A stretch of DNA of 64,000 nt from a virus. Of this stretch, positions 8,589 through 60,595 are shown piece by piece. Where the stretch lies: positions 23,646-87,645 of IMG/VR virus record IMGVR_UViG_3300045988_117192; one strand, written 5' to 3'. The notes beneath the pieces were generated by a model that searched no databases, was not told the origin of the DNA, and worked only from the letters and a program-made list of their open reading frames with translations. The position numbers and the translations under genes were made by a program. Each line of letters opens with the position of its first letter. Within the stretch, counting starts at the first letter, position 1.

Positions 8589-9905
8589 ATGCCAACTATA
8601 CCTACAATGAGTTTAAAAACAGCACCTATACAATTTGCTGAATTTAAACCTGTACAATATACTCCTCAAATTGCTGATAGTACTCTTTTAGCTAAATCTT
8701 TATCAATGCAAGAAGCTAGAGCTAAAGAAGCTAGAACTACTTTAGGTAATACTGATACTTTATTAAATGGTATTAGAAATGCTATTAATCCTGAAGAATA
8801 TACTTGGTTTGAAAATCAAGCTAATGATATTAGAAAAAAAATAGATGATCAAATAGCTTTAGGTAATACAGAAACTGCTATTAGATTTGCTCAAGAAGCT
8901 GGAAGAGATTTAGCTAGAAGTATTGATATGAATAATAAAGTAAAAGCTAATGCTATATATCAACAAGAACTTAATAAAATTAAAAGTGGTGCTTATAGTG
9001 AATTAACTAAACGTAGATGGGAAGATACTAACACTTATTATGATAATGGTACTGGTAATTGGAAAGCTGAAAACTTTATTCCTGTTAAAGATATTTCTGT
9101 ATCAGATGTTTGGGCTAATGCTGTAGCTAAAACACCTACTAGAAGTAAATCTTCAGGTGGTAATAGAAGCAATACTAAAGAAACTACAGTAGATAATGCT
9201 GGTAGACCAATTAAGGCTTTTACTAAAGAAACTGTAAATGGTAAATCTGATACTATTATTAATAATAACGTATTAGGTGTTGCTAAAACAATTACTACTA
9301 GTAGTAATTGGTCATCTGGTTATAATAGTAAAAGTAAAGAAGATATTATGAATATCTTTAATGATTTAATGAGTGACCCAAATATATATGCTGGAGTTAA
9401 ACAACAATATGATAATTTAGTATGGCTTTATGATAAAAGTACAAGTATTATTAATAATCCTAATAGTACACCTGAACAAATAAAGCAAGCTAAAACTGAT
9501 TTAGATACAGCACAAGCTTCATTAGAAGATAAAGATGGCTTTCTTCATAAAGATGATAATTATTTTAAAACTTGGGTTCAAAAACAAGCTAATAGATATG
9601 CTGAACATAGTAAGTTTTATAATACTTCAAGTAGTAAAGGTAGTAGTTATGGAGAACATTACGGTGATGTGTTTACTAATATAAATAATAATAGAGCTGA
9701 AAATTATGTAACTGACTTATCTCCTGCTGCTGATGGTATTGTACCAGGTCCTAATCGTTCTTTTACTGTAGGTACAGTTTTTCCTAGTAATCAATCTAGC
9801 AATCAATCTAATAATTCAGGTAATTTTAATTATAATATTGTAAGTACAGATGCTAATGATTATACTAGTCTTTATGAACAAAATGATAACACAAACTCTA
9901 ATTAA
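8589..9905 (+). CDS. hypothetical protein (438 aa)
   Basis: ORF in the same operon-like series; Asn/Ser/Thr-rich. Confidence 0.5.
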   Translation: MPTIPTMSLKTAPIQFAEFKPVQYTPQIADSTLLAKSLSMQEARAKEARTTLGNTDTLLNGIRNAINPEEYTWFENQANDIRKKIDDQIALGNTETAIRFAQEAGRDLARSIDMNNKVKANAIYQQELNKIKSGAYSELTKRRWEDTNTYYDNGTGNWKAENFIPVKDISVSDVWANAVAKTPTRSKSSGGNRSNTKETTVDNAGRPIKAFTKETVNGKSDTIINNNVLGVAKTITTSSNWSSGYNSKSKEDIMNIFNDLMSDPNIYAGVKQQYDNLVWLYDKSTSIINNPNSTPEQIKQAKTDLDTAQASLEDKDGFLHKDDNYFKTWVQKQANRYAEHSKFYNTSSSKGSSYGEHYGDVFTNINNNRAENYVTDLSPAADGIVPGPNRSFTVGTVFPSNQSSNQSNNSGNFNYNIVSTDANDYTSLYEQNDNTNSN

Positions 9906-22400: not shown

Positions 22401-25400
22401 GTTATTATAGTATAGAACTTAAAAAACTTCCAAATGATGAAATTTCTAAAGAACCAAAGTTCAAAGAAGGTATGTCTAATACTAAAGGTTATAAATTTTA
22501 TCATTTAGGTTCTAATGGTACTGTTTTAGAAAAAAATGGAGAAGGTTTTAAACTTGCTGGTAATGTGTTTCATAGTAATAAGTTTACTTTAGCTGTTGAA
22601 AGTGCAGATGGTACTATTAGTAAAAAAAATTATCTAGATGAAATTATAAGTAATGATTTAGATAAAAGATATGATGGTTCAATCAATCTTCTCTACGGGG
22701 GAGCTATGAGGATAGTAGCTACTCTAGAAGAAGATGGTAATTATAATGTAGAAGATGTTATTTTTAGTGATCTTCAACAAGAGAAAATAAATAAAGCTCT
22801 TTCAGATTTTCTTACAGAATATCAAAAACAAGCTATTAATAAAATAGATAGTTATAAAAACTTTATTCAAGGAGTTGATATTACTAGTGAAAATATAACA
22901 AGTTTTGCTATTAATAATCTTCTAATGCACTATAATTATGATGAATTATTTGAAGGTAATACTAAATTTTATAAAGATAGTCAAACTATTTTAAAACGTG
23001 CTAAAGAATATCAAGGTTCTGGTGTACCTTATGGTATTGCTAATTATAATATTTTTAATAATGAAGATTTATCTGATGTAACAAAACATTCATTTCTTAA
23101 TAATGGCACTATAGAAGAAACTAGTAAAGATTCTGAAGGTAAAGAAATAATTAATAAAGTTAGTATTCAAGATTTATTTAAAGGTACTTTATTTGAAGGT
23201 ACTACTCAACGATATGGTTTTAGAGGTGTTACCATTAAAAATACTCAACGTACAAATGTATCTGCTCTTGAAGAACTTGTTAAAAAACTTGTAAAAGATT
23301 CAAAAATAGATGAAGAAGCTGCTAGAGAAATTCTTTTTGGTCCTATTGTAATTAAAAATGGTAAAATAGTTAGAGATAAAGAAGGAAATCCTGTTCGTAA
23401 AGGTGGTTTTACTGAAACTAAAGTTAATGATGCTCAATCTTATATAACTGTTCAAGAATGGGTTCGTCGTATTTCAGCTCGTGGACAACTTCAACGCTAT
23501 CTTCCTTTAATAAAAAAAATAATTGAAGCTGATAAAAATCCTGATATTAAGCTTGATGCTAAGACCATTAAAGAATTTGTTCAAGTACAAAAAAATTTTT
23601 ATTATGATATGCATTATGATAAAAATTATGGTATTTATGTTCCTCGTCAAATTAAAAATGCTGAATTTGTACTTATACCTAGTCTTATAAAAGGTACACA
23701 ACTTGAATATGTGTATAATATGATGAGAGAAGGCAATATTGACCAACTTAATACTATTGAAACTAGTAAAGCAGCTAATGAAGAAGTTCTTACTATTTGG
23801 GATAATGATGCTAAAATTAAAGGTTTAGATGGTGTTGTTGATGAAGATGAAATAGCTAAAGCTACTAGTAAGTATGCTAGACAACTTGAAGAAAATGCTC
23901 AAATATATTCTTATAATAATTTATATACTCAGCAAGAAACACCTCAACATATGAATGCTGAAAATAAAGCTGGTATTCAACTTATGAAGAAATTGGTTGA
24001 TAATCTTCCTGATGATGATAGTGATCTTGGTAAACTTAAAAAAGAATATTTTAAATTATTTACTCGCAATATAGAAGAATCTTTTACTGATTTACTTGAT
24101 AATTTTGAAATTCCTTATGATGAAAATGGTAATATTGAATTAGATGATCTTAATCATATTAAAAATGTTAATCTAAAAGTTTTTTATAATAAACTTAAAG
24201 AAGAATTAATGCGTACAGGAATTGATAGTAACTTAAATGATTATGTTACTATTCCTGAAGGTTCTAGTATACCTAGTATGCCTGCTGCTCTTATGAACAA
24301 TGTTCTTACTAAGTTTGAATCTGTTGTTCAAAGTTTATTTAATAATAATATTACTAGACAAAAACTTCCAGGTTTTCATGCTGCTCAAATTACAAATGTT
24401 GGTTGGAGTCCTTTAAATGAAACTATAGAAGATGTTAGTTACAATAAAACTTTAAAATATCATCCTGAAGGTGAACCTTATATTGAAGTAATGCTTCCAG
24501 CATCATTTTTAGGAATAAACAAAAATGATGAGCATTATAAAAATATGACAAATAAAGAAATTATAGCTGAACTTGAAGCTAAAGGTTTAGATATGATTAT
24601 TGGTTATCGTATTCCTACTGAAGGCAAACAATCAGTATGTAATATGAAAGTTGTTGGTATAACTGATGATGCTTTTGGTTCTACTATTGTTGTTCCTGAT
24701 GATTGGGTTTCTCAAACAGGTTCTGACTTTGATATTGATAGTGTTTATGGTATTCAATTTGAAACTTATAAAACTAAATCTGGTGAAGTATTTCCTGTAG
24801 AATATAAGGAAGCTAAAAATAGAACTAAATATGATTGGTTTAATTATATTCTTAAATTTGCAAAAGATGATAGTTTAGATCCTAATGTTAAAAGTAAAAT
24901 AGTTGATGCTAAAAATAAAATAAAATCTGAACTTCAAACTGAATTAAATAAATTACAAAATGAAGAAAAAGAAGTTTGGAATAAATTTGATAAAAATGCT
25001 CAAAAGATTATTAAACAACGTCAAGATAAAATAACTCAAGCTATAAAAAAACAAGGTCTTGAAGGCGAAGATGCTTATCATTATAGACTTACTAAACTTA
25101 TTAGTTTTTTAAATAATACTAAAAAAACTGCTAAAAATAAAAATACTAATTTTATTAAAATAATTGATGAAACTATACCTACTATTAAAGCTATTGATGA
25201 TTTTATAATAACTCAAGAAGGTAAATATAATGAAAAAAGTAAAAAAAGAATAGATAGTATTCTTAATGAAAAACTTGATACATTTAATAATGCTGCTAAA
25301 AATGGTGGACTTCTTACATTAGATGACTATCTTAAATCTGAAAATGATTTAAAAGCTAATACTAGAAAAGCTAGAAATAATAAACTTCTTAGTATTATGA

Positions 25401-28400
25401 AAGAAATTCTTTCAGATCCTAAAACTCTTGAAGAAAATCTTTCTCGTTCTAATTATGATGATTTAGTTCGTGCTTGTAATGCTGTAATGAATCCTAATGT
25501 TAAAGCAGCTAGAGATGGTAGAAGTCCTTATAATGTATTTGACCAAATAGATTATCAAGAAGATGCGATGAGTGGTGCTAAACTTAAAGCTTTTAGTGTT
25601 ACACTTGATACTTTTTGTTCTGTTTGTAATAAAGTTAGACCAACATTAGAAAAACCTGTTTATATTGTTTATAATACAGATGATTATAAAAATCCTCAAG
25701 CTATTTTAGATAGATTTAATGCAGGTAAGCTTAAAGATAAAGCTAAAACTTTTGCTATAAAACATAGTACTTATGGGTGGAGCAAAGATAATAGAAATGT
25801 AGCAGGTAAAATTCTTACAGCTTATTCTTCTCAAACTACAGCATTTATTCTTGATGCTATCAAAGAAGGAGCTATACCTAATGTTAATGATTATACATTT
25901 TCAGTATTTAAAACTCTTGCTAATATAGGTACAGATTATAATACTTCTGTTGCATTTATTATGCAACCTGGTATTGAAGAAATTGTAAAAGCTAATAACA
26001 GTAATAAATCTGTTTATTCTACAACTTCTGGTAATCCTATTCATCAAGCTATTAGAACTATTGCTAAACGATTAGAAATAAATGCTGAAGATAATGTTCC
26101 TATTACAACAGTACTTGCTTCTATTAATAAAAAATATAATAAAGAATTTAATAAAATATTTAAACAACAAGGTGATGATACTATTACTATTAGTTTAAAA
26201 GAAGAAGATACTAAAAATCTTCCTATAATAGCTTCTATGCTTGTTGATAGACTTAAAAACACAGGTAAGTTTAGTAAAAGCTCCCCCGTAGAGAAGTCTT
26301 TGTTTGATTTAGGTGTTATACTTAGTTTTAATAAATTACATGATACAGCTAATACTATAGGTGATATAGCTAGATGTTGTAATCCTGATAGATTTGGTGC
26401 TAAACAAACTGTTTTTGAAACTCGTCAAGTATTTACTAGTATAGATCAAACTATGTTTAATCAAGAAGTTTCTCCTGATACTGGTAGTATTATTAGACAA
26501 TTAAGAGAACCAGTACTTTCTGTTAATGGTAAACATATATTAGCATCTATATATCCAGGCAGTGATGATATTAATAGTGATAGTAATGGTATAATTAATA
26601 ATTTACTTAGAACTAACAGAATTGCTGAAAGTAGTTATCCATCATTATATGCTTTCTTAAAATATGCTTCTGCTACTAGTATTGTTGTTGCTAAAACAAT
26701 ATTTGATACGCAAGATGATGGTTTTGTAAAACTTATAACAGATTTTAAAGATGTACTTAATGGTTATAATCAAACTATTAATGAAGATACATATAATGAT
26801 TTACAAAAATATGTATTAAGTTCTTTATATAAACAAGTTCCTGCAATTAGATATCTTGTTAATGTTAGAACTAATGATAAAGGAGAAATTGAGATAACTC
26901 AAAATATTCCTACAGAAATCGATAAAATAGAAGAAGCTTCTAAAGCAGAAATTACTAGAATTTATGGTTATGAACGTGATAATAGTATTTCTATTATTAA
27001 TAAAGAAACCTATAAAGACGATAATGGTAAAACTAAAACTAAAACTATAATTACTAATTTTGAAGTAAAAGATATTAATAATCCTACAAAGGATGAAATG
27101 GAACTTTATGAACAACTTTCTCCTGCTCAAAAAGTTCAATTTATAAAATCTAATTTTAGTAATGCTGGTATATTTAGTTTACTTAATGTTAGTCTATTTA
27201 ATAGTACTGCTAGAGGTAAATGGGTTGGTATGCAAACTTTAGAATATAAAGAACAAAATATAAATCCTAATGTAGTTTATGCTGAATTTAGAAAAGCTTT
27301 TTATAATAATAATCCTTTAATTGTTTCTGCTGCTATTGATTTAGTTAAATATGCTGCTCAAGTTGAAGGAATGAGAATGACTGCTACAGCTATTAATAAA
27401 ATTATAGATAATAAATGTCTTGTACAACCTTTTGGTAGAAATGGATTAGGTTTTGTAGATAGTATTAAACAAACTATGAATGATATCAAAAATGGTAAAG
27501 GACATTTTGGTTATAATTTAGATGAAAATAATGATGTTAATTCTGAAGTAGAAACTCTTTATGAAAATTATCTTAGAAGTCATCCTGAAACTAAAGGTAT
27601 TAAAACTGTTTATTTAAGTAAAAGAACTCAAAGTAAATATGGATTATATAAACATGATTTTGGTACTTATTATTTAAAGGTTAATGATGATAAGGATTCT
27701 CCTGAAGATAATCTTAAAGCTTTTAATCAAAGATTAGCTAATATAGGTATTAAAACTTATCTTCCATTAAGTGATAAATACAAGACTAATAAATATATTA
27801 GATTTAGAGATAGTAAAAGTAATAATTTATACAGAATAGTTGAAGGTGATGGATATATTGTTTTATATCCTTTATCTAAGCTAGAAGCTAATGAAAATAG
27901 TGAATGGTCTGCTAATGAAGATAATAATAGAGGTATTCTTAGTAAAAGAGCATATACTGTATTAACTAATGATTTTGCTAAAGTAAAAGATAGTCAAGAA
28001 TTTACACATAACTTTATAAAAGAACGTATGGAACATTATAAAGAAACTGGTGAAAAGAAGACTTTCTTTTATAAAGAACGTAAGAATTATAATAGAAATG
28101 TTCCTGCTGCTGATTTTAGTATTGAAAAAGAAGCTGAAGATGGAGGTTCTATGGCTATTCTTCGTCAGCAAATAATTAATCATTTTAAAAATCCTCTTGC
28201 AGGTAGATTATTTGTTAAAAATGGTGCTTTAACTAATTATATATTTAGTCCTGGTGTAGAAAATGGTAGTGAACAAACTATTCATTTTGGTAATAATGAT
28301 ACTAGACGATTTATATTATCTATTCCCGATAATTTAAATAAAGTAGAAAAACAATGTTTAAAAGGTGATAAAGATGGAAATAAAGTAAGTGTTAATAATA

Positions 28401-31400
28401 TACAAACTCCTAGTCTTAGAACTATTGTTAAAAATGCTCAAGATGCTGGACTTACTAGATTATCGGGAGTTGTTGAAGTTATACCTGTAGTTGAAAATGA
28501 AGCTTATGCTGCTAGTTTAGAAGAATTAGATTCTAATAGTATAGATTTTGCACATAGTAGACGTGCTGCTAAAAATGATCAAGCTTCTATTGATTATCTT
28601 GAAAAACTTAGATCTAATGATATTAATGCTAGTATTGAAAGTATAGGTAAAACTGATGAAAGTAGAAAATTAACTACTAGAGAAACAGCTAAATATGCTA
28701 GACATACTGCTGATTATATTAGAACTAAATTGTTTAATCAATTTATAGAAGATCCAGATAATGCTGATGCTTTTATTAGTATTACAGATGATAGAATTAT
28801 AGCTATGATTAAAAAAGATCCTAAACTTATGGATAAGTATATGGAAGCTGTAAACATAGCACAAGCATTTATTAACGAATATACACCTTATCGAGAATTT
28901 GATGCTACATCTGAAGATTCAGAAATTAGAATGTATATTAATGATATAAAACAAGCTCTTGATGATGTAAGTAAACTTCCTTTATCTGATGTATTACAAA
29001 AAGGTGCTCAAGCTACACTTGATAAATATTCTACTAATCCTTTAGTTAAAGAAGGTCTTATTGATGTGATGGATGGTTATTGGAAAACTTACGGTGTTGC
29101 ATGGCAATTTAATGATATAATGGAAAATGGTACTCCTATTTTACAAGTTATGCTTAAAAATGTCATGGATGATATAGATGCTAGAGATAAAGCTTTTCAA
29201 CATAAAACTAAAAAAGAATTTTGGAATAGAATACGAGAAATTCAAGCTGAAGCTAGACGTAAAGGTGAAACTATTGATTGGAATCATATAGTTGATGAAG
29301 ATGGTAGATTTATTCAAGATTATGATAATAAGTTTATTGATGATATGCAAGAACTTAGAAATAAAATGAATGAAGAAGCTAGACTTAACGGTTATGGTAG
29401 TTTACCTCATCTTAAAACTAAACTTGAATATGATCAATTTAAAGCTAATCATTGTAATCAACCAGCTGCTGGTATGTATTATCAAAGAAAATGTGCTTTA
29501 GAAAGAGCTATTATTTATGGTTATGATGTTAAAGGTGATCCAAATTTACCTTTTGAAAGTATTGATAGACATGTTCCAGGTTTTCCTGATATATATTCTA
29601 AATATATGAAGCTATTTTATAAACGTCTTGATATATTTCATTATATGTCTAATGATGGTCTTAATGAAAATCAAAGACAAGAGCTTAATAAGCTTAATCA
29701 AGAGATGTTTAATCTTGTAAGACCTGGTATTTATGCTGATGAAAGTGGTAGATTACAAGAAAGACCTTATGTTGATGAAGGTATGGCTGTTACAGATAAT
29801 GATACTTTAAAATTTTATAGTAGAGAATCTCAAAGAGCTTTAAAAACTTTTCTTGATAATATTGCACAACTTAATGATGAATATTTCGCTTATGATTCAG
29901 CTTATGGTTTTGAAGATCAACTTAAAATAAATTTAAATATTATTGCTAGTTATGAAAACAGAGATGCTAATGGAATTCCTCAAAAACCACAAGATTGGTT
30001 AGATGCTCAACCTGAATATTATGAAGCTAAACAATGGGTTCAAAATAATGCTAGATTTGTATTAAATACAGCTAATGATGAAAATGGTGAAGCTAATAGT
30101 ATAGGAGCTAAACTTAAAGAATCTTTCAGATTGTTAGGTTTAACTAGTAGTGGTAAAAATAGAAGTGCCGCTGATGTTATGCGCAATCATAATAATGGTG
30201 AAGGTATTTATGATGAAAATCATGTATTAGATGGTAGAAAACTATCTGATGAGGAATTAGCTGAAGTAAAAGATAAACAATTATATGATTATAAAACTAA
30301 AGATTGTCCTCCTTTTACAGATAGAGTATTAATTTCTAATGCTAAACCTGATAATACTGTTTTTACTAGTGACTTTTACGAAGGTATGAGTAAAAGTAGA
30401 ACTAATAATGCTAATCAAGCATATTTAGCATGTGTAACTGAACTTAATAAACTATTAGAACCTTATTATAACAATGTAGATGGTAATATTCATTTTGAAC
30501 AAATTCCAGATACAGATGAAGGTATCGAACTTCTTAAAAAAATAGCTCAAAAATATCAAGAAATTAGAGCTTATAAAGAAACAGATAATACTGACAGAAG
30601 TGTATCAGATTTTATAAAAGATAATGTTGAATTTGTTACTAATAAAGTTGCTTGGAATGGTCAAATAGCTGCTATAAAAAGTGGTAATTTTAGTGATGAT
30701 TTTAAAAACGCTTTTATATTATTAGCTTATGAACGTAAATCTAATGGTGATTTTGTTCAAAGAAATGGTAATTTTGTTCCTAATAGATTCCTTTATAGTT
30801 ACGCTAAACCACAAGGTAAACCTGGAGATCCTTCTTATGAACGTTTTGTAGATCATAAACGTAATGAAGCTTTAAATCTCGTTAATCAAATTTATCGTAA
30901 AGTTTCTACTAAATATTATTATCAATCAATGCACGAAGCTATGGCTAAAGCCCAAAAGAATGGTAATTATAATTATATGGATTGGTATGTTGCCAATCAT
31001 ATATACAATCCTTATACTCGTAAAATGCAACCATTAGATTGTTGGCTTACTAGTGAAGTTCGTGATGAATTATTTAAAGATAATACTTTTGAAGGTAAAT
31101 GGGTTCCTAGAAGTAATCAAAGAGATAAAGTAGTTCGCGATGGTACTTTTAGTACTGTTGTAGCTGGACAAAAAATTAGTGCTTATGATAAAGATCGTGA
31201 TATGAGAAATCATGATTATAATCCTGATCTTGGTCTTATAGGCAATTACGTAAAAGGTAGCCAAAAAGGTAAATATGATAGTAAAATAGTTATGAATGAT
31301 TCTGAAAAAGCTATGCGAGATTATCTTCAAAAAATTCTTATGCAAACAGCTAATGTAGAATCTGCTCGTAGATATTTTGAAAGAGGCTATTTACCTGCAA

Positions 31401-33715
31401 GTTTAAAACCTAAAGATACAGATCTTAAAATGCTTGGTAAAGAAGGTTTAAAATTAGTTGGTATTGGTATTTCTTCTGAAAATGGTAAGAAAGATTGGTA
31501 TAATGAAATAGGTTATGAGTTTGATAAAACTCCTTTAATGCCTATGACTAAACTTCTTGAAAGTAAACAAACTATTGATTTACAAAAGAAAATTAAACAA
31601 ATTAATGAACGTACTATTACAAGAGAACAATTCAATACTGATGAAGAATTTAATAAAGCTATTACTGAACATGATGAAAAAATAACTGCATTAGAAGCTC
31701 AATTAAAGAAAGAAAGAAATGCTCTTCTTAATAGAGATTGGTTAAATGTTATAGACTGTTATCTAGAACAAGCTAATAGATATAATGCTATTAATGATAA
31801 TAAAACTAAATTATATTTTCTTCATAATGTTCTAAAAAGTATGCAAATGTATTCTAGAAAATATGGTCTTACAGGTGATTTAGATAAAAATACTAGAAAA
31901 TCTTCTGAAGGTAATATTTATAGTAAAAGTGTTGATGAAAATCTTATCAAACAATACGAGAATACTTTACGTAGACTTTTATTTGACCAATGGAAAGCTA
32001 AAGAAGGTAATATAACAAAATATGCTAATACACTTCAAGGATTTGTTTCAGCTAACTATATGATGTTAAATGTTAGAGGTGGTATTTCTAATGTTACATT
32101 AGGTGAAACAGGTATTTTAGCTGAGGCTTTTGCTGGTGAATTTTTTAGTAAAGGTGATTGGGTTTTTGGTACTAAAGAATGGACTAAGGGTTCTTTAGGT
32201 TTTGCTAGAGGAGGTTTTGAAGCTATGTTTAATCATGAAGGAACTTCTTATAACAAACAAGATGCTATTATTAAATTTTTTAATGTAGTTGATTATGATG
32301 AAATAGCTGGTGTTGTTCATGAATTAAATCTTGAAGAATATAGTAAAAAACTTCGTGATGCTATGTTTAGTTCTCAAACTATAGGTGAACATTTTATGCA
32401 AAATAGTGTATTATTTGGTATGCTACATGGACATAAAATTGTTACTATGCTTGATGGTTCTGTTATGGCTATGAATAAAAGACAGTATATTGATTATCGT
32501 CAAAGTCAAATTCTTGATAGTATTTTATCTGAAGATCAACTTAAAACTTATAATGAATTTAAAGAAAATATTAAAAAAGATCCTAATAAACTTAAAGATT
32601 ATGCTTGGTTTAGAAGAGATGCTTTAACTGATTGGGTTTATCTTCATACAAGTAAAGAACAATCTGATAAATTCTTTGCCGAACGTAATAAGAAAGAAAA
32701 AGAATTTGCTAAAGAATTTGATGATAAAATTAATATGTATGACCAAATAGAACTTGGTAACGATGGTAAACTTGCTTTTAAAGAAGGTTCTGAGTTGGCT
32801 GAGTTAGATAAAAAACCCCATAATGGTTCTTCTGAAATAAGTGAAGCTATGGCTTTAGTTGGTGCTTTTTCTAACAAAGTTCGTAAAGTAAATAATAGAA
32901 TACATGGTGCATATAATAGGCAATCTGCTGCTTATATCGAACGTACATGGTGGGGTAGTTTAGTTATGCAATATCATAAACATTTACCTATAGGTATTCT
33001 TAAAAGATATATGGCTAGAGGTCATTATAATGAAACTAGAGGTAGTGTTGATAAAGGTATGGTTCAAACTATTAAAGATTTGTTTAGACTTAATTGGGAT
33101 AAAATTAAAGTAGATGCAGGTCTTACAGATGAACAAGCTGAAGCTGGTAAAAGTTTTACTTTTATTTTAGCACATAGTTTTGATTATCTTACTCAATTAA
33201 GACAAACACTTAAAGTAATTCCTCCTTATGAAAAAGCTAATATTATTAGAAATTTAGGTGATCTTACAGCAGTATTAGGAGGTATGGCAATGGTTGCAGC
33301 TCTTTGGTATATTGCAGATGACGATAATGAAATGCAAGATAGTATTTGGTTTAATATGTGGCTTTATGAAGCTGATAGACTTACTTCTGAAGGTTTCTTA
33401 TATAATCCTTTAGGTTTAGCTAATGAAACTAAAAAGATAATGAGTACTCCTATTGCTGCTCAAAGTATTATAACAGATGGTTTAAATACTATCAAAGGTA
33501 TTATTGAATGGATGTTTGATGATGAATATGATCCTTATTATCATAGTGGTCGTTTTGCTGGTGAACGTAAAATATCTGTTTATATTCAAAGACGTATTCC
33601 TATATGGAATGGTATTAGAGGCGTTATTGATAGTCCTACAAATAATCATTATTATAAAGTTGCTGAGAATCCTATTGGTATATTTGATATTAAAAAACGA
33701 GTAACTGGTGATTAA
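19430..33715 (+). CDS. giant virion-packaged RNA polymerase candidate (crAss-like vRNAP), 4761 aa
   Basis: 14.3-kb uninterrupted ORF; contains SDFDIDSVYG (DFDID at nt 24725-24739, in frame), the variant of the DxDGD double-psi beta-barrel catalytic motif reported for crAss-like phage RNAPs; size and position in a structural gene block match crAss-like cargo RNAPs. Confidence 0.6.
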   Translation: MNCFARISSSKTGNELRKLIGDNDVLFTTMLLEASDVNGFTEDFQKVYKESNKGAIAPLLDPKTKPQASKIAKAIYNYYYKKHPSIDSTVRNQDSDNNTTLFGYSSIFNREKGKAHVATFILDTFNNLQNSGAELKKNKLEYYRKQAKKAWLNMIFDSISKRDNKKVDDLKKEYKNAEDKASYINELLGGNEKNITYSNYYAVYQELFASDKTSLNYINEVFTNPNLADVYHQIKGDLDEENSKLGAQGNEELNGKNPEGSEVNDVELDTSITTLNNHIGVYTSFMTHVGPRIRNYFNTLRKLASPTIGDFDTSNDYGIAETMDANACSSMLYNQATFHNVDDMIKSIQHIGQTVSGFEAFVKLAKDLEDNPDFATEMFTVFAKTKIDKLETVVKDGMPITRISNASATPRNVLVFDLRNDIKGVIRDNNAFVIASYIKVLDDNTDEALKNIKKLSDKNYSEKDKINFKNKADNTLGKAKQEIIRLIKTYYPSVQDAAILSYIEMNNNAAGNTKIQLENIQALSKDINDACKATDRSYNALQQMTIRAAKIKENNDNLDKARKRGEIIDFNEYQNEKSVYSDDFIEPQDASIQKIVNKLLPYSIINTQLNSRNIHGNNTSNIINNSLITQIDKMLKDNYEERVYDANGKFLYTRIRNKTLEAWGLEKLRSKQYKYSNILLEQTDENGKVLNRGIFKYVNGQLVISENAENLIKLRLFDGAGNMDNNTNLSYSEMTSGDYLPTDFINFFNTKTNEIKDVANYFLRTPSDAPKTFTIRAPKYNTHDLFTVEDKESFNDTINDIVKTHANVLTAEDYNNKYRPDSKNFYFSKLQTYNIENYLTPTENTTIPITDVRSIKKIEGTEKEDGSYEAYVTYGDDKTGDIVVVKGTIEKTKSQKGYHLINVSYEGTFNNTKNYENGIPTNVSSYLTKYYHTELLKHDITINDKTWTKAEQIVNVNHPVYKMIKNQFKQEMLDAAVALSHYFNFRQDEDGYYSIELKKLPNDEISKEPKFKEGMSNTKGYKFYHLGSNGTVLEKNGEGFKLAGNVFHSNKFTLAVESADGTISKKNYLDEIISNDLDKRYDGSINLLYGGAMRIVATLEEDGNYNVEDVIFSDLQQEKINKALSDFLTEYQKQAINKIDSYKNFIQGVDITSENITSFAINNLLMHYNYDELFEGNTKFYKDSQTILKRAKEYQGSGVPYGIANYNIFNNEDLSDVTKHSFLNNGTIEETSKDSEGKEIINKVSIQDLFKGTLFEGTTQRYGFRGVTIKNTQRTNVSALEELVKKLVKDSKIDEEAAREILFGPIVIKNGKIVRDKEGNPVRKGGFTETKVNDAQSYITVQEWVRRISARGQLQRYLPLIKKIIEADKNPDIKLDAKTIKEFVQVQKNFYYDMHYDKNYGIYVPRQIKNAEFVLIPSLIKGTQLEYVYNMMREGNIDQLNTIETSKAANEEVLTIWDNDAKIKGLDGVVDEDEIAKATSKYARQLEENAQIYSYNNLYTQQETPQHMNAENKAGIQLMKKLVDNLPDDDSDLGKLKKEYFKLFTRNIEESFTDLLDNFEIPYDENGNIELDDLNHIKNVNLKVFYNKLKEELMRTGIDSNLNDYVTIPEGSSIPSMPAALMNNVLTKFESVVQSLFNNNITRQKLPGFHAAQITNVGWSPLNETIEDVSYNKTLKYHPEGEPYIEVMLPASFLGINKNDEHYKNMTNKEIIAELEAKGLDMIIGYRIPTEGKQSVCNMKVVGITDDAFGSTIVVPDDWVSQTGSDFDIDSVYGIQFETYKTKSGEVFPVEYKEAKNRTKYDWFNYILKFAKDDSLDPNVKSKIVDAKNKIKSELQTELNKLQNEEKEVWNKFDKNAQKIIKQRQDKITQAIKKQGLEGEDAYHYRLTKLISFLNNTKKTAKNKNTNFIKIIDETIPTIKAIDDFIITQEGKYNEKSKKRIDSILNEKLDTFNNAAKNGGLLTLDDYLKSENDLKANTRKARNNKLLSIMKEILSDPKTLEENLSRSNYDDLVRACNAVMNPNVKAARDGRSPYNVFDQIDYQEDAMSGAKLKAFSVTLDTFCSVCNKVRPTLEKPVYIVYNTDDYKNPQAILDRFNAGKLKDKAKTFAIKHSTYGWSKDNRNVAGKILTAYSSQTTAFILDAIKEGAIPNVNDYTFSVFKTLANIGTDYNTSVAFIMQPGIEEIVKANNSNKSVYSTTSGNPIHQAIRTIAKRLEINAEDNVPITTVLASINKKYNKEFNKIFKQQGDDTITISLKEEDTKNLPIIASMLVDRLKNTGKFSKSSPVEKSLFDLGVILSFNKLHDTANTIGDIARCCNPDRFGAKQTVFETRQVFTSIDQTMFNQEVSPDTGSIIRQLREPVLSVNGKHILASIYPGSDDINSDSNGIINNLLRTNRIAESSYPSLYAFLKYASATSIVVAKTIFDTQDDGFVKLITDFKDVLNGYNQTINEDTYNDLQKYVLSSLYKQVPAIRYLVNVRTNDKGEIEITQNIPTEIDKIEEASKAEITRIYGYERDNSISIINKETYKDDNGKTKTKTIITNFEVKDINNPTKDEMELYEQLSPAQKVQFIKSNFSNAGIFSLLNVSLFNSTARGKWVGMQTLEYKEQNINPNVVYAEFRKAFYNNNPLIVSAAIDLVKYAAQVEGMRMTATAINKIIDNKCLVQPFGRNGLGFVDSIKQTMNDIKNGKGHFGYNLDENNDVNSEVETLYENYLRSHPETKGIKTVYLSKRTQSKYGLYKHDFGTYYLKVNDDKDSPEDNLKAFNQRLANIGIKTYLPLSDKYKTNKYIRFRDSKSNNLYRIVEGDGYIVLYPLSKLEANENSEWSANEDNNRGILSKRAYTVLTNDFAKVKDSQEFTHNFIKERMEHYKETGEKKTFFYKERKNYNRNVPAADFSIEKEAEDGGSMAILRQQIINHFKNPLAGRLFVKNGALTNYIFSPGVENGSEQTIHFGNNDTRRFILSIPDNLNKVEKQCLKGDKDGNKVSVNNIQTPSLRTIVKNAQDAGLTRLSGVVEVIPVVENEAYAASLEELDSNSIDFAHSRRAAKNDQASIDYLEKLRSNDINASIESIGKTDESRKLTTRETAKYARHTADYIRTKLFNQFIEDPDNADAFISITDDRIIAMIKKDPKLMDKYMEAVNIAQAFINEYTPYREFDATSEDSEIRMYINDIKQALDDVSKLPLSDVLQKGAQATLDKYSTNPLVKEGLIDVMDGYWKTYGVAWQFNDIMENGTPILQVMLKNVMDDIDARDKAFQHKTKKEFWNRIREIQAEARRKGETIDWNHIVDEDGRFIQDYDNKFIDDMQELRNKMNEEARLNGYGSLPHLKTKLEYDQFKANHCNQPAAGMYYQRKCALERAIIYGYDVKGDPNLPFESIDRHVPGFPDIYSKYMKLFYKRLDIFHYMSNDGLNENQRQELNKLNQEMFNLVRPGIYADESGRLQERPYVDEGMAVTDNDTLKFYSRESQRALKTFLDNIAQLNDEYFAYDSAYGFEDQLKINLNIIASYENRDANGIPQKPQDWLDAQPEYYEAKQWVQNNARFVLNTANDENGEANSIGAKLKESFRLLGLTSSGKNRSAADVMRNHNNGEGIYDENHVLDGRKLSDEELAEVKDKQLYDYKTKDCPPFTDRVLISNAKPDNTVFTSDFYEGMSKSRTNNANQAYLACVTELNKLLEPYYNNVDGNIHFEQIPDTDEGIELLKKIAQKYQEIRAYKETDNTDRSVSDFIKDNVEFVTNKVAWNGQIAAIKSGNFSDDFKNAFILLAYERKSNGDFVQRNGNFVPNRFLYSYAKPQGKPGDPSYERFVDHKRNEALNLVNQIYRKVSTKYYYQSMHEAMAKAQKNGNYNYMDWYVANHIYNPYTRKMQPLDCWLTSEVRDELFKDNTFEGKWVPRSNQRDKVVRDGTFSTVVAGQKISAYDKDRDMRNHDYNPDLGLIGNYVKGSQKGKYDSKIVMNDSEKAMRDYLQKILMQTANVESARRYFERGYLPASLKPKDTDLKMLGKEGLKLVGIGISSENGKKDWYNEIGYEFDKTPLMPMTKLLESKQTIDLQKKIKQINERTITREQFNTDEEFNKAITEHDEKITALEAQLKKERNALLNRDWLNVIDCYLEQANRYNAINDNKTKLYFLHNVLKSMQMYSRKYGLTGDLDKNTRKSSEGNIYSKSVDENLIKQYENTLRRLLFDQWKAKEGNITKYANTLQGFVSANYMMLNVRGGISNVTLGETGILAEAFAGEFFSKGDWVFGTKEWTKGSLGFARGGFEAMFNHEGTSYNKQDAIIKFFNVVDYDEIAGVVHELNLEEYSKKLRDAMFSSQTIGEHFMQNSVLFGMLHGHKIVTMLDGSVMAMNKRQYIDYRQSQILDSILSEDQLKTYNEFKENIKKDPNKLKDYAWFRRDALTDWVYLHTSKEQSDKFFAERNKKEKEFAKEFDDKINMYDQIELGNDGKLAFKEGSELAELDKKPHNGSSEISEAMALVGAFSNKVRKVNNRIHGAYNRQSAAYIERTWWGSLVMQYHKHLPIGILKRYMARGHYNETRGSVDKGMVQTIKDLFRLNWDKIKVDAGLTDEQAEAGKSFTFILAHSFDYLTQLRQTLKVIPPYEKANIIRNLGDLTAVLGGMAMVAALWYIADDDNEMQDSIWFNMWLYEADRLTSEGFLYNPLGLANETKKIMSTPIAAQSIITDGLNTIKGIIEWMFDDEYDPYYHSGRFAGERKISVYIQRRIPIWNGIRGVIDSPTNNHYYKVAENPIGIFDIKKRVTGD
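22688..22706 (-). repeat. GC-rich dispersed motif copy, reverse orientation, inside vRNAP ORF
   Basis: CTACGGGGGAG at 22693-22703; encodes LYGGAM. Confidence 0.8.
26279..26296 (+). repeat. GC-rich dispersed motif copy inside vRNAP ORF
   Basis: AGCTCCCCCGTAGAGAAG; encodes SSPVEK. Confidence 0.8.
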
Positions 33716-36202: not shown

Positions 36203-36433
36203 TTGGTTGTGGTAATACCCACTTATTTCATGGTAATTGAGTTGATAAAACTAATTATTTTGCTCCTATTAGTTGTAAAACTAGTAGGAGTTTTTGTTTT
36301 TATATATTTTGTATGTGTTCCAACTAATTATAAAAAAAAAGATGTAAATAAAGATAATACTTTATTTACTATTAATGATAAGTTATACAATAATTTTATT
36401 TTAGATTTAAGCAAGTCAAATATAATTTGCTGA
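36203..36433 (+). CDS. small hydrophobic ORF (76 aa), doubtful
   Basis: ORF in the strand-switch region; strongly hydrophobic N-terminal half; could be spurious in AT-rich DNA. Confidence 0.2.
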   Translation: MVVVIPTYFMVIELIKLIILLLLVVKLVGVFVFIYFVCVPTNYKKKDVNKDNTLFTINDKLYNNFILDLSKSNIIC

Positions 36434-36548: not shown

Positions 36549-36583
36549 CTGTAGCATTAAAAAAAAAGGCTAGTAGCATTACT
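36549..36583 (-). terminator. rho-independent terminator ending the minus-strand replication block
   Basis: on the minus strand GGCUGGUGGC-AGUAAU-GCUACUAGCC (10-bp stem, two G-U pairs) followed by nine U (plus-strand A-run 36549-36557). Confidence 0.55.
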
Positions 36584-36609
36584 GCCACCAGCCCAAACAA
36601 CATAACAAA

Positions 36610-58731: not shown

Positions 58732-59205
58732 TTATTTCTTAAACAAAGGTTTATCCTCATGAGTTAAACAAGGTCTATAATCTTTTACAAAAGGACTAAA
58801 AGATATAAATTCTTTATATTGAAAATACATCTTTCCGTTTATTCGTACAATATTACCTGTAATAACTATGTTTTCTCTAAAAGGAATATAATGTTTTACA
58901 TCATTATAAAGATTAGCTAAAGCTTTATCTCTGATAATACATCGAAATCTACTTTCATCTATTCTTTCTTTACTGAAAATTATTTCTTTACCTTTAATAT
59001 CATAACTTTCAGTAGTAAATGGAATTAATAGAATATCAGCATTTTCTTCATTATTAACACAAATTTTAGCTTTAAAGCCTTCATCATCTTTGATAACTAT
59101 AGCTCTACATATTCTACTAATAACATTACTTTCTGTAGAAACATTATGTTTCCTTTTATTTCTTTTGGCAATATTTATTTTTATACCAAGAAGAGGAACA
59201 ACCAT
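58732..59205 (-). CDS. hypothetical protein (157 aa)
   Basis: ORF directly downstream of the next gene. Confidence 0.45.
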   Translation of the reverse strand: MVVPLLGIKINIAKRNKRKHNVSTESNVISRICRAIVIKDDEGFKAKICVNNEENADILLIPFTTESYDIKGKEIIFSKERIDESRFRCIIRDKALANLYNDVKHYIPFRENIVITGNIVRINGKMYFQYKEFISFSPFVKDYRPCLTHEDKPLFKK

Positions 59206-59207
59206 AA

Positions 59208-59489
59208 CTATTTTCTTTTATCAGTTAATTTATGTTCTTTTGCAGCTTTCTTTGCAGCACGTGCATTAGATTTAGCTACATTTTCTGAGACAACTTTAGC
59301 TACACCTTTAGCTATATTGTCCCAAACAAAATGATATCCGCAATAATTTACAAGATAATCAATTTTACCCCACATACGAATACCAATAACTACTGCTTTA
59401 GAAGCACGAAGAGTTTTAGTAACTACATTAAAGCTACCAATACGACCAAAACTACGAAGGTCACTGTTTTCATCATGACGTTTTGCCAT
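59208..59489 (-). CDS. hypothetical basic protein (93 aa)
   Basis: ORF with Lys/Ala-rich C-terminus (ARAAKKAAKEHKLTDKRK); first gene downstream of the triple-hairpin region. Confidence 0.45.
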   Translation of the reverse strand: MAKRHDENSDLRSFGRIGSFNVVTKTLRASKAVVIGIRMWGKIDYLVNYCGYHFVWDNIAKGVAKVVSENVAKSNARAAKKAAKEHKLTDKRK

Positions 59490-59629
59490 TTTACAACAAT
59501 TTTAAAAAGTAAATAATTAAGTTAATTAAAAGCTCAAATAAGAGCATTGTCTTCTTTATGAGAATCGAACTCATTTATAAGATTATTTGTAATATCTTAT
59601 GTTTTACCTATATAAACTAAAAGAAGAAA

Positions 59630-59659
59630 ACCGTTACGACTTTTACAAGCAATAACGGT
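59630..59659. repeat. hairpin repeat unit 1 (stem ACCGTTA/TAACGGT, loop CGACTTTTACAAGCAA)
   Basis: 7-bp perfect stem with 16-nt loop sharing the GACTTT(T/C)ACAAGCA core with units 2 and 3. Confidence 0.6.
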
Positions 59660-59700
59660 CAAAATATATGGATATATAACAAAAATGATTTCTAATAAAA

Positions 59701-59730
59701 ACCATTACGACTTTCACAAGCAGTAATGGT
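59701..59730. repeat. hairpin repeat unit 2 (stem ACCATTAC/GTAATGGT, loop GACTTTCACAAGCA)
   Basis: 8-bp perfect stem; loop identical to unit 3; stem differs from unit 1 by compensatory changes. Confidence 0.6.
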
Positions 59731-59777
59731 ACTAACATAAATTAAAAGTATGAGTAAAAATGAGTTTCATTAATAAA

Positions 59778-59807
59778 AATACTACGACTTTCACAAGCAG
59801 TAGTATT
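59778..59807. repeat. hairpin repeat unit 3 (stem AATACTAC/GTAGTATT, loop GACTTTCACAAGCA)
   Basis: 8-bp perfect stem; conserved loop; stem sequence co-varies with the other units. Confidence 0.6.
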
Positions 59808-59855
59808 AAGTAAACATTATGAATAATACTTATCAAATTATGGGATTAACCATAG

Positions 59856-59939
59856 TACCTAGAATGGGACTCGAACCCACACAAGCTAAAGCTCAACAGA
59901 TTTTAAGTCTGTCGTGTCTACCTATTCCACCATCTAGGT
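59856..59939 (-). tRNA. tRNA-Leu(TAA), class II with long variable arm
   Basis: hand-folded from the reverse complement: acceptor ACCTAGA/TCTAGGT, D-stem GTG/CAC with 11-nt loop, anticodon stem ACAGA/TCTGT with loop CTTAAAA (anticodon TAA), 15-nt variable arm with GAGC/GCTT stem, T-stem GTGGG/CCCAT with TTCGAGT loop. Confidence 0.6.
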
Positions 59940-60223
59940 ATCATCTTCAATCATAAAAGTTATATAATATATTTATTTATGATTTCAGAGAGTTTATTTT
60001 TTTAGTTGATGAAGTTATAAACTAAACTATTATAAGCTATCATACTTAAAACAAATGGCCAAATCTGACTTATTTAGTAATACTTACGGATTTTATATTC
60101 CTGCATCAATATATCGACTATCCAAACAATCAGCACTACAACAATAAATATCAGCATCATAACTTTCAAGATAATCTCTAACATCTTTATCAGACATTGT
60201 TTTAACCATTTCATCTAAATTAT

Positions 60224-60595
60224 TCATAATAATATAAGCATTGAAATTAAAACTGCTATAGTAATACAAGTATTAATACAAGTATTAATAATAGATAAAC
60301 GTTTAAAGTTTTTACATTTATTTATAATTTCAAAATAATTACTTGCATATTCATCACAACAATCTTTAAAATCATTTATTTGTTTATTAAGATTAGCAAT
60401 ATTAATATCTTTATCTTTAATTACTTTTATTAAATCTTGTATTTTATCATAATAATTTTTATTGATATCATCAAATGCTTTTATTTGAGAACGTAAATCT
60501 TCATTATTTTTTTTAAGTTTTTTATAAATATCATCTTTACGTATTATAATATCAACTAATTTTCTTTTATCTTTATTTATTAAAGCATTAGACAT
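60224..60595 (-). CDS. coiled-coil protein with C-terminal transmembrane anchor (123 aa)
   Basis: Lys/Asp-rich heptad-like sequence ending in ITIAVLISMLILL. Confidence 0.45.
   Translation of the reverse strand: MSNALINKDKRKLVDIIIRKDDIYKKLKKNNEDLRSQIKAFDDINKNYYDKIQDLIKVIKDKDINIANLNKQINDFKDCCDEYASNYFEIINKCKNFKRLSIINTCINTCITIAVLISMLILL

What the first reader, a model, noticed from the sequence alone, without database searches (positions are those of the whole stretch)
59630..59807. Three tandem hairpins with identical loop (GACTTTCACAAGCA) and co-varying stems upstream of the minus-strand replication genes
The units at 59630-59659, 59701-59730 and 59778-59807 each form a perfect 7-8-bp stem with a 14-16-nt loop. 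The loops are almost identical, while the stems (ACCGTTA, ACCATTAC, AATACTAC) differ by compensatory changes that preserve pairing. That is a classic signature of selection for structure. The units are spaced 71 and 77 nt apart in a 700-nt non-coding stretch, between a tRNA-Leu gene and the first gene of the helicase and polymerase block (minus strand). Three tandem structured elements at the head of the early or replication region recall the three hairpin promoters that the N4 virion RNA polymerase uses on extruded single-stranded DNA. They could be the cognate early promoters for the giant virion RNAP encoded on the other strand. Alternatives are a replication origin with structured iterons, or three copies of a small structured RNA.
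Basis: partly seen in the sequence, partly recalled or inferred. Interest (0 to 1): 0.8.

Follow-up and report, generated by a model that had tools for sequence, protein, structure and literature searches.

The report
Tandem terminator-type RNA hairpins beside phage tRNAs
The three hairpins are real and under selection, but they read as RNA stem-loops on the gene (minus) strand of a crAss-like gut phage, of the terminator type found in Bacteroidales bacteria and their phages, and not as promoters for the giant virion RNA polymerase.

Summary
In detail: three hairpins at 59630-59659, 59701-59730 and 59778-59807, spaced 71 and 77 nt, with a near-identical centre and compensating stems. The "14-16-nt loop" is not a loop. 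On the minus strand, which carries the genes and tRNAs, each unit folds as an 8-bp lower stem, a U/C mismatch, a 4-bp upper stem that starts with a G.U wobble, and a GNRA tetraloop (GUGA or GUAA), followed by Us. The window is a crAss-like phage (closest: cr271_1). The same apical module, UGCUUGUGAAAGU(C/A), with unrelated covarying stems and a U-tail, occurs in many relatives, in other viral contigs, and after ordinary Bacteroidales chromosomal genes. G.T wobbles outnumber A.C 163 to 31, so the fold is selected on the sense strand. That argues against an N4-style hairpin on the template strand. One feature is not ordinary. In relatives this hairpin sits 3-8 nt upstream of tRNA 5' ends far more often than chance allows, and its apical sequence is conserved for no known reason. 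Interest is moderate to low.

The parts
59778..59807 (-). Hairpin 3 (class A, free-standing). Minus strand: AAUACUAC-U-GCUU-GUGA-AAGU-C-GUAGUAUU, followed by UUUAUUAAUG. It lies 47 nt downstream of tRNA-Leu.
   Evidence: (-11.3 kcal/mol, z -3.63); identical in relative L168/L171
59701..59730 (-). Hairpin 2 (class A). ACCAUUAC-U-GCUU-GUGA-AAGU-C-GUAAUGGU, followed by UUUUAUUAGA.
   Evidence: (-13.3 kcal/mol, z -3.80)
59630..59659 (-). Hairpin 1 (class B, abuts a tRNA). ACCGUUAU-U-GCUU-GUAA-AAGU-C-GUAACGGU, then UUU, then the 5' end of the tRNA-like gene. One more G-C pair extends it to 59629-59660.
   Evidence: (-14.5 kcal/mol, z -4.93)
59855..59939 (-). tRNA-Leu(UAA), upstream of the hairpin array on the same strand.
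   Evidence: 59.9 bits
59549..59626 (-). Non-canonical tRNA-like gene (ARAGORN: 'Cys ACA'). It is the positional homologue of tRNA-Lys(UUU) of related phages and starts 3 nt after hairpin 1.
   Evidence: (40.4 bits)
59208..59489 (-). First protein gene downstream (93 aa, MAKRHDEN...). It is conserved in crAss-like relatives and was used as the anchor to fetch 80 homologous loci.
36262..36291 (+). Canonical terminator of the plus-strand block, after tRNA-Asn and tRNA-Gln. Same architecture (8 bp / X / 4 bp / GUAA) followed by UUUUUGUUUUU.
36567..36594 (-). [quoted passage not shown] It has a GUAA loop and a U8 tail.

Best explanation
The three units are RNA stem-loops made when the minus strand is transcribed. 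They are copies of a hairpin family used by Bacteroidales and their phages to make and protect RNA 3' ends.

Hairpins 3 and 2 (stem-loop plus U-tract) most likely act as tandem Rho-independent terminators or attenuators. They would stop, or thin out, transcription coming from the small-ORF block and tRNA-Leu before it enters the tRNA-X and replication-gene block.

Hairpin 1 is the ancestral copy, the one that relatives carry 3-13 nt upstream of a tRNA. It is co-transcribed with that tRNA. RNase P cleavage at the tRNA 5' end would leave the upstream RNA ending in hairpin plus 3 nt, a tail too short for 3' exonucleases to grip.

Shown: the structure, its strand, the covariation, the U-tail, the tandem duplication, the family distribution and the tRNA adjacency. 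Inferred: termination, which polymerase is affected (host RNAP and/or virion RNAP), the RNase P-made 3' end, and stabilisation. Unexplained: why the apical sequence UGCUUGUGAAAGU(C/A), with an invariant G.U, is conserved.
For: 1. Sense-strand RNA. The GNRA tetraloop and the G.U pair exist only on the minus strand, and the minus-strand folds are 1.8-7.2 kcal/mol better. Family-wide, G.T = 163 against A.C = 31 under a pairing criterion that is symmetric between strands, on hairpins located by a GURA loop on the strand read.

2. Covariation. 93.1% of cells paired, 53 double-sided changes against 13.4 +/- 3.5 in shuffles, and slid controls at 32-63%. Hairpins anchored only on the 12-nt core have 7-8 of 8 lower-stem pairs in 23 of 27 cases, and 26 of 27 are on the gene strand.

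3. U-tail. Positions +1 to +3 are T in 70-82% of 67 family members. No conserved element lies at a fixed distance upstream.

4. Terminator contexts. Stem-flanked copies of the exact 14-mer are intergenic (17 of 31 outside any 60-codon ORF, against 4 of 128 stemless chance hits). They lie 8-105 nt after co-oriented ORF ends, sometimes between convergent genes. In bacteria all 13 stem-flanked hits are Bacteroidales, several after housekeeping genes such as an OEP/TolC protein, a GH127 hydrolase and a PUA-methyltransferase.

5. The phage's own terminators at the convergent junction have the same 8/X/4/GNRA build.

6. The Rfam model of the validated B. thetaiotaomicron sRNA BTnc231 ends in a C-GUGA-G-topped terminator (PMC7366714).

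7. Between the window and relative L168, the hairpins and tRNAs are about 100% conserved and the spacers about 50%.

8. tRNA adjacency. 10 of 50 tRNAs in the held loci have a family hairpin ending 3-13 nt upstream, against about 0.02 expected. The distance from the preceding tRNA is loose, at 30-284 nt.
Against: - The stems are A+U-rich and modest (-11 to -14.5 kcal/mol), and the U-tracts are short or interrupted (UUUUAUUA, UUUAUUAA, UUUCUUCUUUU).
- The homologous tRNA-abutting hairpins in cr271_1 and L179 have no real U-tract, so termination cannot be the whole story.
- Hairpin 1 leaves no room for a promoter before the tRNA. In relatives, free-standing copies sit only 13-31 nt before the next start codon. 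Downstream genes must therefore be read through, which fits leaky attenuators or post-transcriptional elements.
- Generic terminators do not need a conserved apical sequence, and this one keeps a mismatch, a wobble and a weak U-A closing pair.
- The simple terminator scan did not flag the three hairpins.
- There are no transcript-end data for this phage.
- By analogy with phi14:2, this strand may be transcribed by the virion RNAP, whose response to such hairpins is unknown.
Confidence: 0.6

Rival explanations
1. tRNA-leader or processing element. The hairpin is primarily a 5'-leader structure of tRNA precursors, acting as an insulator that fixes a short single-stranded leader for RNase P, or as a site for another endonuclease. 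Hairpins 2 and 3 would be duplicated copies with little function of their own. A stronger form of this idea is that the apical module binds a specific host or phage protein, or that the released hairpin RNA is itself a product.
For: The gap to the next tRNA peaks sharply at 3-8 nt, for five different tRNA identities. L246 has three consecutive hairpin-tRNA units, and L059 has about 13 hairpin/mini-tRNA units. Class B copies often lack a U-tract. The apical sequence is conserved with an invariant G.U.
Against: Most family members are not next to tRNAs and carry U-tails after ORFs, including in bacterial chromosomes. Hairpins 2 and 3 are conserved as strongly as the tRNAs in L168 although neither abuts a tRNA. 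No candidate binding protein was identified.
Confidence: 0.22
2. Hairpin promoters for the giant virion RNA polymerase, as for N4. Extruded DNA hairpins would direct initiation just downstream, giving early transcripts and tRNAs.
For: The hairpins are always on the gene strand of the putative early (replication) block. They lie 3-8 nt before tRNAs and 13-31 nt before start codons in relatives, a geometry compatible with initiation just downstream. The crAss virion-RNAP promoter is unknown, and the enzyme was assayed on denatured phi14:2 DNA.
Against: Wobble asymmetry places the fold on the sense strand; on the template strand the top of the hairpin has A.C mismatches. The stem is 12-13 bp with a tetraloop, against N4's short stem and 3-nt loop. 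The same module with a U-tail ends ordinary Bacteroidales genes and occurs between convergent genes. It also occurs in a contig with only weak similarity (138 nt, 73%) to RecT-encoding Porphyromonas phages and none to crAss-like phages. phi14:2 early 5' ends share no motif.
Confidence: 0.04
3. Three small RNA genes. Each 71-77-nt unit would be a tiny transcription unit (promoter, short RNA, terminator).
For: The tandem units each end in a terminator-like hairpin. phi14:2 has abundant, stable non-coding RNAs of unknown function in its early region.
Against: The 41-47-nt spacers are too short for a promoter plus an RNA body. They are poorly conserved (about 50%) between the window and L168, and copy number differs (3, 2 or 1). 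There is no positional promoter motif and no Rfam hit.
Confidence: 0.05
4. Lambda-type nut/boxB-like antitermination sites, in which a GNRA-type hairpin is bound by a phage antiterminator.
For: A GNRA tetraloop sits on a sequence-conserved upper stem, located early in a long operon.
Against: The same module occurs in bacterial chromosomes after genes. A U-tail directly follows it. No boxA-like partner or N-like protein was looked for or seen. Tandem triplication is not typical of nut sites.
Confidence: 0.04
5. Replication origin with structured iterons.
For: Repeated units lie in an A+T-rich non-coding stretch next to replication genes.
Against: Copy number ranges from 0 to 3 among close relatives, and copies are scattered at different places. 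GC skew changes sign at about 36 kb, not here. Selection is on one strand only.
Confidence: 0.01

Closest known systems
Rho-independent (intrinsic) transcription terminators, including tandem terminators and terminator hairpins that stabilise 3' ends (for example the GUGA-topped terminator of Bacteroides sRNA BTnc231, Rfam RF04180)
   Same: A sense-strand RNA hairpin is followed immediately by Us. It sits downstream of co-oriented genes or tRNAs. It shares its build with the phage's own terminators at the convergent junction. The family occurs after ordinary Bacteroidales genes.
   Different: The lower stems are A+U-rich. The 14-nt apical module is conserved in sequence, with an invariant G.U and a U/C or U-A position. 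Many copies leave no room for a downstream promoter. A subclass lacks the U-tract and abuts tRNA 5' ends.
Phage N4 virion-RNAP early promoters (DNA hairpins on the template strand)
   Same: Three hairpins with a conserved centre lie in the early region of a phage that packages a giant RNAP, a short distance from the downstream gene or tRNA.
   Different: The selected strand is the wrong one. The stem is 12-13 bp with a tetraloop instead of 5-7 bp with a 3-nt loop. The element also occurs in genomes without such a polymerase and between convergent genes.
tRNA-punctuated processing units (mitochondrial tRNA punctuation; the gammaherpesvirus MHV68 tRNA-like/pre-miRNA hairpin units, recalled from memory)
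   Same: A tRNA or tRNA-like module sits directly next to a stable hairpin, repeated in tandem (L246, L059; hairpin 1 in the window). tRNA-processing enzymes would define the hairpin RNA's end.
   Different: Here the hairpin is 5' of the tRNA, so the end would be made by RNase P. No processing data exist, and most family members are not next to tRNAs.
Conserved-loop intercistronic hairpins of phages (T4 C(UUCG)G hairpins, T7 RNase III sites; recalled from memory)
   Same: Repeated intergenic RNA hairpins with a conserved, unusually stable loop motif in phage early regions, linked to mRNA stability and processing.
   Different: The loop class differs (GURA). The stems are too short for a classical RNase III substrate. 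The motif is shared with host chromosomes.

Membership tests
Intrinsic (Rho-independent) terminator | Stable stem-loop formed by the nascent RNA (sense strand) | tested here: met
   Minus-strand folds are -11.3 to -14.5 kcal/mol, with z-scores of -3.6 to -4.9. G.T is favoured over A.C by 163 to 31. Covariation beats 500 of 500 shuffles.
Intrinsic (Rho-independent) terminator | U-tract immediately 3' of the stem | tested here: met
   The tails are UUUAUUAA, UUUUAUUA and UUUCUUCUUUU. Family positions +1 to +3 are T in 70-82% of members. The feature is not met by the tRNA-abutting homologues in cr271_1 and L179.
Intrinsic (Rho-independent) terminator | G+C-rich stem | tested here: not met
   The lower stems are mostly A-U, in a window of about 24-34% G+C. 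Family members in other genomes have G+C-rich stems.
Intrinsic (Rho-independent) terminator | Lies downstream of a co-oriented transcription unit | tested here: met
   tRNA-Leu ends 47 nt upstream on the same strand. Family members lie 8-105 nt after ORF ends, and some lie between convergent genes.
Intrinsic (Rho-independent) terminator | Produces transcript 3' ends in vivo or in vitro | not testable with these tools
   No transcript data exist for this phage, and the papers found describe no mapped crAss-like terminators.
N4-type virion-RNAP hairpin promoter | Hairpin forms on the template DNA strand; short stem (5-7 bp) and 3-nt loop (definition from established N4 knowledge) | tested here: not met
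   The fold is selected on the sense strand. It has 12-13 pairs and a 4-nt loop.
N4-type virion-RNAP hairpin promoter | Confined to genomes that encode the cognate polymerase | tested here: not met
   The exact module with a stem and U-tail occurs in 13 Bacteroidales chromosomal contigs, several after housekeeping genes. It also occurs in L020, a contig with only weak similarity to RecT-encoding Porphyromonas phages.
N4-type virion-RNAP hairpin promoter | Primary transcripts start a few nt downstream | not testable with these tools
   The geometry (3-8 nt to tRNAs) is compatible. However, phi14:2 early 5' ends share no motif.
Replication origin iterons | Conserved array of initiator-binding repeats at a skew switch or A+T-rich unwinding element | tested here: not met
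   Relatives carry 0-3 copies at varying places. There is no GC-skew inflection at 59.7 kb.
Any curated Rfam family (ribozymes, sRNAs, tRNA-like) | Match to a covariance model | tested here: not met
   Apart from the two tRNAs, nothing in 59000-60500 approaches its family's gathering score even at E <= 10, and no hit covers the hairpins.
Lambda nut/boxB antitermination site | GNRA-like hairpin together with boxA and a cognate N-type protein | not tested
   Only the GNRA hairpin is present. No search was made for boxA or an N-like protein. The module's presence after bacterial genes argues against this family.

The most novel reading that the evidence does not exclude
The conserved apical module (U-G.U-CUU-GUGA) is a specific recognition element and not just a terminator top. 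The [hairpin-(3-8 nt)-tRNA] unit would then be an undescribed processing cassette of Bacteroidota phages: RNase P cleavage at the tRNA (or at the anticodon-arm-less mini-tRNA in L059) releases or caps a defined hairpin RNA. That would either give upstream early RNAs an exonuclease-proof 3' end, or produce abundant small hairpin RNAs that engage a host or phage factor.
Probability: 0.15. Interest if true: 0.6.

Novelty: new variant of a known kind. Interest (0 to 1): 0.35.

Why it matters
This result removes an attractive candidate for the still-unknown promoters of the crAss-like virion RNA polymerase, which is worth knowing before anyone tests them. On the positive side, it defines a hairpin family that is easy to recognise (8 bp / U-x / G.U + 3 bp / GURA / UUU). 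The family marks transcript boundaries in crAss-like and other Bacteroidales phage genomes, and so helps with operon annotation in these abundant gut viruses. Two features remain unexplained and deserve a targeted experiment because they hint at an RNA-processing rule specific to this host-phage world: the sequence conservation of the apical module, and its tight placement 3-8 nt upstream of phage tRNAs, including whole arrays of hairpin-tRNA units.

Tried and rejected
- Rfam scans of the region at E <= 10 hit only the two tRNAs. Ribozyme and sRNA families are therefore rejected.
- The tool's simple terminator scan did not flag the hairpins, because the internal mismatch splits the stem.
- I looked for a promoter at a fixed distance upstream or downstream of 67 family hairpins, using per-position information content and TAnnTTTG counts. 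There was no signal except the TTT tail.
- The spacers were considered as sRNA or mini-tRNA remnants. This was rejected because they are not conserved between the window and L168 and contain no T-arm motif.
- Literature searches for the motif as DNA or RNA text, and for GUGA/tetraloop terminators in Bacteroides, found nothing relevant.
- A crude census of terminator loops in flanking bacterial and viral DNA showed that GUGA is not the general Bacteroidota terminator loop. The idea that this is simply the standard host terminator was therefore softened to a rare host variant that appears enriched in phages.
- BLAST classification of the other contigs carrying the module gave little. L059 and L106 were essentially unmatched, and L020 was weakly similar to RecT-encoding Porphyromonas phages.
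- The supplementary promoter file of the phi14:2 paper is not held.

Full report
**What is there.** The window is a crAss-like phage. The nearest deposited genome is uncultured phage cr271_1 (Crassvirales, Intestiviridae), at about 78% identity over the matching parts.

Its layout matches cr271_1:
- A plus-strand block ends with a 4761-aa giant ORF (19430-33715) and with tRNA-Asn and tRNA-Gln.
- A convergent junction lies near 36.4 kb.
- A minus-strand block runs from the right end of the window down to 36.6 kb. It holds small ORFs, a tRNA island, and then helicase, polymerase and other replication genes.

The three hairpins lie in the tRNA island on that block. On the minus strand the order is tRNA-Leu(UAA) 59939-59855, 47 nt, hairpin 3, 47 nt, hairpin 2, 41 nt, hairpin 1, 3 nt, then a second tRNA-like gene 59626-59549. 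That gene is followed by the 93-aa gene 59489-59208.

**Check of the observation.** The core occurs three times with 0-1 mismatch and nowhere else in the window at that stringency.

The centre is not a loop, however. Read on the minus strand, each unit is an 8-bp lower stem, a U/C mismatch, a 4-bp upper stem (G.U, C-G, U-A, U-A) and a GNRA tetraloop. The loop is GUGA in units 2 and 3 and GUAA in unit 1. Us follow directly.

As RNA, the minus strand folds at -11.3 to -14.5 kcal/mol (z -3.6 to -4.9). The plus strand is weaker, at -7.3 to -11.5 kcal/mol, because the G.U pair becomes an A.C mismatch.

The single difference in the "loop" of unit 1 (C to T on the plus strand) converts one GNRA loop into another. 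The stem differences are double compensatory changes or C-G to U.G changes.

**Relatives.** I used the conserved 93-aa protein downstream as an anchor, so that the search did not depend on the hairpins. This fetched 3 and then 80 homologous loci from viral contigs.
- The closest relative (L168/L171, 87% protein identity) has two hairpins with the stems of units 3 and 2. The second abuts the same odd tRNA.
- Between the two phages the tRNAs and hairpins are essentially identical, while the spacers are only about half identical. Selection therefore acts on the hairpins and not on what lies between them.
- cr271_1 and L170/L179 each have one hairpin with a different, compensating stem. It lies 13 and 4 nt upstream of tRNA-Lys(UUU), the positional homologue of the window's odd tRNA.
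- Anchoring only on the 12-nt core, 23 of 27 hits in these loci have 7-8 of 8 lower-stem pairs, and 26 of 27 are on the gene strand.
- On an alignment of the distinct copies, including four probable chance matches, 93.1% of cells pair. Ten of 12 pairs show changes on both sides. There are 53 double-sided changes against 13.4 +/- 3.5 in shuffles (0 of 500 as high), and slid controls reach only 32-63%. The G.U at the base of the upper stem is invariant (23 of 23).

**A wider family.**
- Combined with the genome-scan loci below, 159 occurrences of the 14-mer were examined. Of these, 31 are flanked by 5 or more complementary pairs, where about 1 would be expected by chance. Those flanks are unrelated to each other, often G+C-rich, and mostly followed by a T-run.
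- The stem-flanked copies are intergenic (17 of 31 outside any 60-codon ORF), whereas stemless chance hits lie inside ORFs (124 of 128).
- A scan of one genome per bacterial species for the 14-mer plus a nearby T5 gave 46 hits. All 13 with a flanking stem are Bacteroidales (Bacteroides, Prevotella, Phocaeicola, Odoribacter and others), and none of the hits in other phyla has a stem.
- Several of the bacterial copies follow ordinary chromosomal genes: an outer-membrane efflux protein, a GH127 arabinofuranosidase, a PUA/SAM methyltransferase and a DUF3857 protein.
- One viral contig with three copies has only weak similarity (138 nt, 73%) to RecT-encoding Porphyromonas phages and none to crAss-like phages.
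- The Rfam model of the validated B. thetaiotaomicron sRNA BTnc231 ends in a terminator with a C-GUGA-G top (its terminator and Northern validation are described in PMC7366714).
- A rough census shows that GUGA is not the general loop of Bacteroidota terminators. The module is a rare variant in hosts that appears enriched in their phages.

**Which strand, and is it RNA or DNA?** The pairing criterion treated G.T and A.C alike, although the hairpins were located by a GURA loop on the strand read. Across 95 distinct family hairpins, G.T pairs outnumber A.C by 163 to 31, and A.C is no more common than any other mismatch. The fold is therefore selected on the sense strand, as expected for an RNA element. 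On the template strand the top of the hairpin would carry A.C mismatches.

**What flanks the hairpins.** Across 67 family members, the only positional signal outside the hairpin is T at +1 to +3 (70-82%). There is no conserved element at a fixed distance upstream, and TAnnTTTG boxes are not enriched at any distance. Many copies lie 8-105 nt after the end of a co-oriented ORF, and a few lie between convergent genes, where a promoter reading is impossible.

In the window and in cr271_1, the unmistakable terminators at the convergent junction have the same 8/X/4/GNRA build, with other GNRA loops and long U-tails. All of this is the signature of intrinsic terminators or 3'-end hairpins.

**The unusual part.** In the homologous loci the hairpins fall into two classes.
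- Class A is free-standing with a U-tail, often only 13-31 nt before the next start codon.
- Class B ends 3-13 nt before the 5' end of a tRNA and usually lacks a proper U-tract.

Class B includes the window's hairpin 1 (3 nt), cr271_1 (13 nt), L179 (4 nt), L183, L188 and L230 before tRNA-Gln (5, 8 and 4 nt), and three consecutive hairpin-tRNA units in L246 (Leu, Arg and Glu; 4-6 nt).

Over all held loci, 10 of 50 tRNAs have such a hairpin 3-13 nt upstream, where about 0.02 would be expected. The next-nearest distance is 67 nt. The distance from a preceding tRNA is loose, at 30-284 nt. The hairpin is therefore positioned relative to the downstream tRNA and must be co-transcribed with it.

An unrelated contig (L059) carries about 13 tandem units of a GUGA hairpin directly followed by a roughly 50-nt tRNA-like module. 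That module has an acceptor stem, a D-like hairpin and a T-arm, but no anticodon arm. Neither ARAGORN nor the Rfam tRNA model detects it.

**Most likely mechanism.** I read the elements as sense-strand RNA hairpins that make and protect RNA 3' ends.

Hairpins 3 and 2 have U-tails and are best explained as tandem, probably leaky, intrinsic terminators behind tRNA-Leu and the small-ORF block.

Hairpin 1 is the ancestral tRNA-abutting copy. RNase P cleavage at the tRNA 5' end would leave the upstream RNA ending in hairpin plus 3 nt, too short a tail for 3' exonucleases. This also offers an explanation for the tight 3-8-nt spacing.

The window lineage expanded one hairpin to two (shared with L168) and then three by tandem duplication of the hairpin plus about 20 nt. 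Compensatory drift in the stems followed.

The structure, strand, covariation, U-tail, contexts and tRNA adjacency are shown. Termination, the polymerase concerned and the RNase P-made end are inferred. In phi14:2 the whole replicative module is early and is transcribed by the virion RNAP, while tRNA genes often carry host-type promoters. The hairpins may therefore act mainly on host RNAP, on the virion enzyme, or on both; this is open. My confidence in this explanation is 0.6.

**Rivals.**
- *Pure tRNA-leader or processing role, or a factor-binding role* (0.22). This is the main alternative. It is favoured by class B and by the conserved apical sequence, and disfavoured by the many U-tailed copies away from tRNAs.
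- *N4-like promoter* (0.04). It fails on the selected strand, on architecture and on distribution, although the short distance to downstream genes is compatible with it. Only 5'-end mapping could rescue it.
- *Separate sRNA genes* (0.05), *nut-like sites* (0.04) and *origin iterons* (0.01). These have little support.

**Known or new?** Intrinsic terminators, tandem terminators and GNRA-capped phage hairpins are all well known, so the finding is largely ordinary. I could not find two things described in Rfam or in the searchable literature: the sequence-conserved apical module UGCUUGUGAAAGU(C/A), shared by Bacteroidales chromosomes and their phages, and its stereotyped placement just upstream of phage tRNAs. 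I therefore rate the finding as a new variant of a known kind, with moderate-to-low interest (0.35). There is a 0.15 chance that the hairpin-tRNA unit is a genuine, undescribed processing cassette or recognition element.

Noticed in passing
L059 (IMGVR_UViG_3300035517_000474) 7340-9040, + strand: About 13 tandem units, each a 13-14-bp GUGA hairpin directly followed by a roughly 50-nt tRNA-like module. The module has an acceptor stem, a 3-bp D-like hairpin and a T-arm (GGTTCRAWTCC), but no anticodon arm. ARAGORN and the Rfam tRNA model find nothing; only the tmRNA model's 3' end matches weakly. A TTTTCAT(A) motif recurs after each unit. The function is unknown.
   Followed up: partly
L246 (IMGVR_UViG_3300021400_000091) 466-868, + strand: Three consecutive [family hairpin, 4-6 nt, tRNA] units (tRNA-Leu, tRNA-Arg, tRNA-Glu) lie upstream of the homologue of the window's 93-aa gene.
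   Followed up: partly
window 59549-59626, - strand: ARAGORN calls this tRNA-like gene 'tRNA-Cys(ACA)', and the Rfam tRNA model scores it 40 bits. It is the positional homologue of tRNA-Lys(UUU) in cr271_1 and L170. The acceptor and T arms are conserved, but the D arm has diverged and the anticodon arm is non-canonical (about a 6-bp stem with a loop of about 10 nt). It is nearly identical in L168, so it is probably maintained.
   Followed up: partly
window 36262-36291 (+) and 36567-36594 (-): This is a pair of GUAA-capped 12-13-bp terminators with long U-tails at the convergent junction of the two gene blocks. The plus-strand one lies 101 nt after tRNA-Gln. The homologous terminator in cr271_1 has a GAGA loop.
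   Followed up: yes
The homologous position in cr271_1 holds a 13.9-kb ORF that is mis-annotated as 'nuclear pore complex-like protein'. I did not characterise it.
   Followed up: no
L011 14060-14160 and L021 370-480: Low-complexity tracts (GGGGTGAGGGGG..., (ATAAAAGATA)n and purine-rich repeats) flank a three-hairpin array in another crAss-like contig. They possibly mark the genome terminus. In that contig the hairpins head a co-oriented gene block, with divergent genes upstream.
   Followed up: no
L084 799-872, - strand: A viral contig that carries family hairpins after a tRNA-Ser also matches the Bacteroidetes FopS sRNA family (RF04319) just above its gathering score (57.2 bits against 56).
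   Followed up: no
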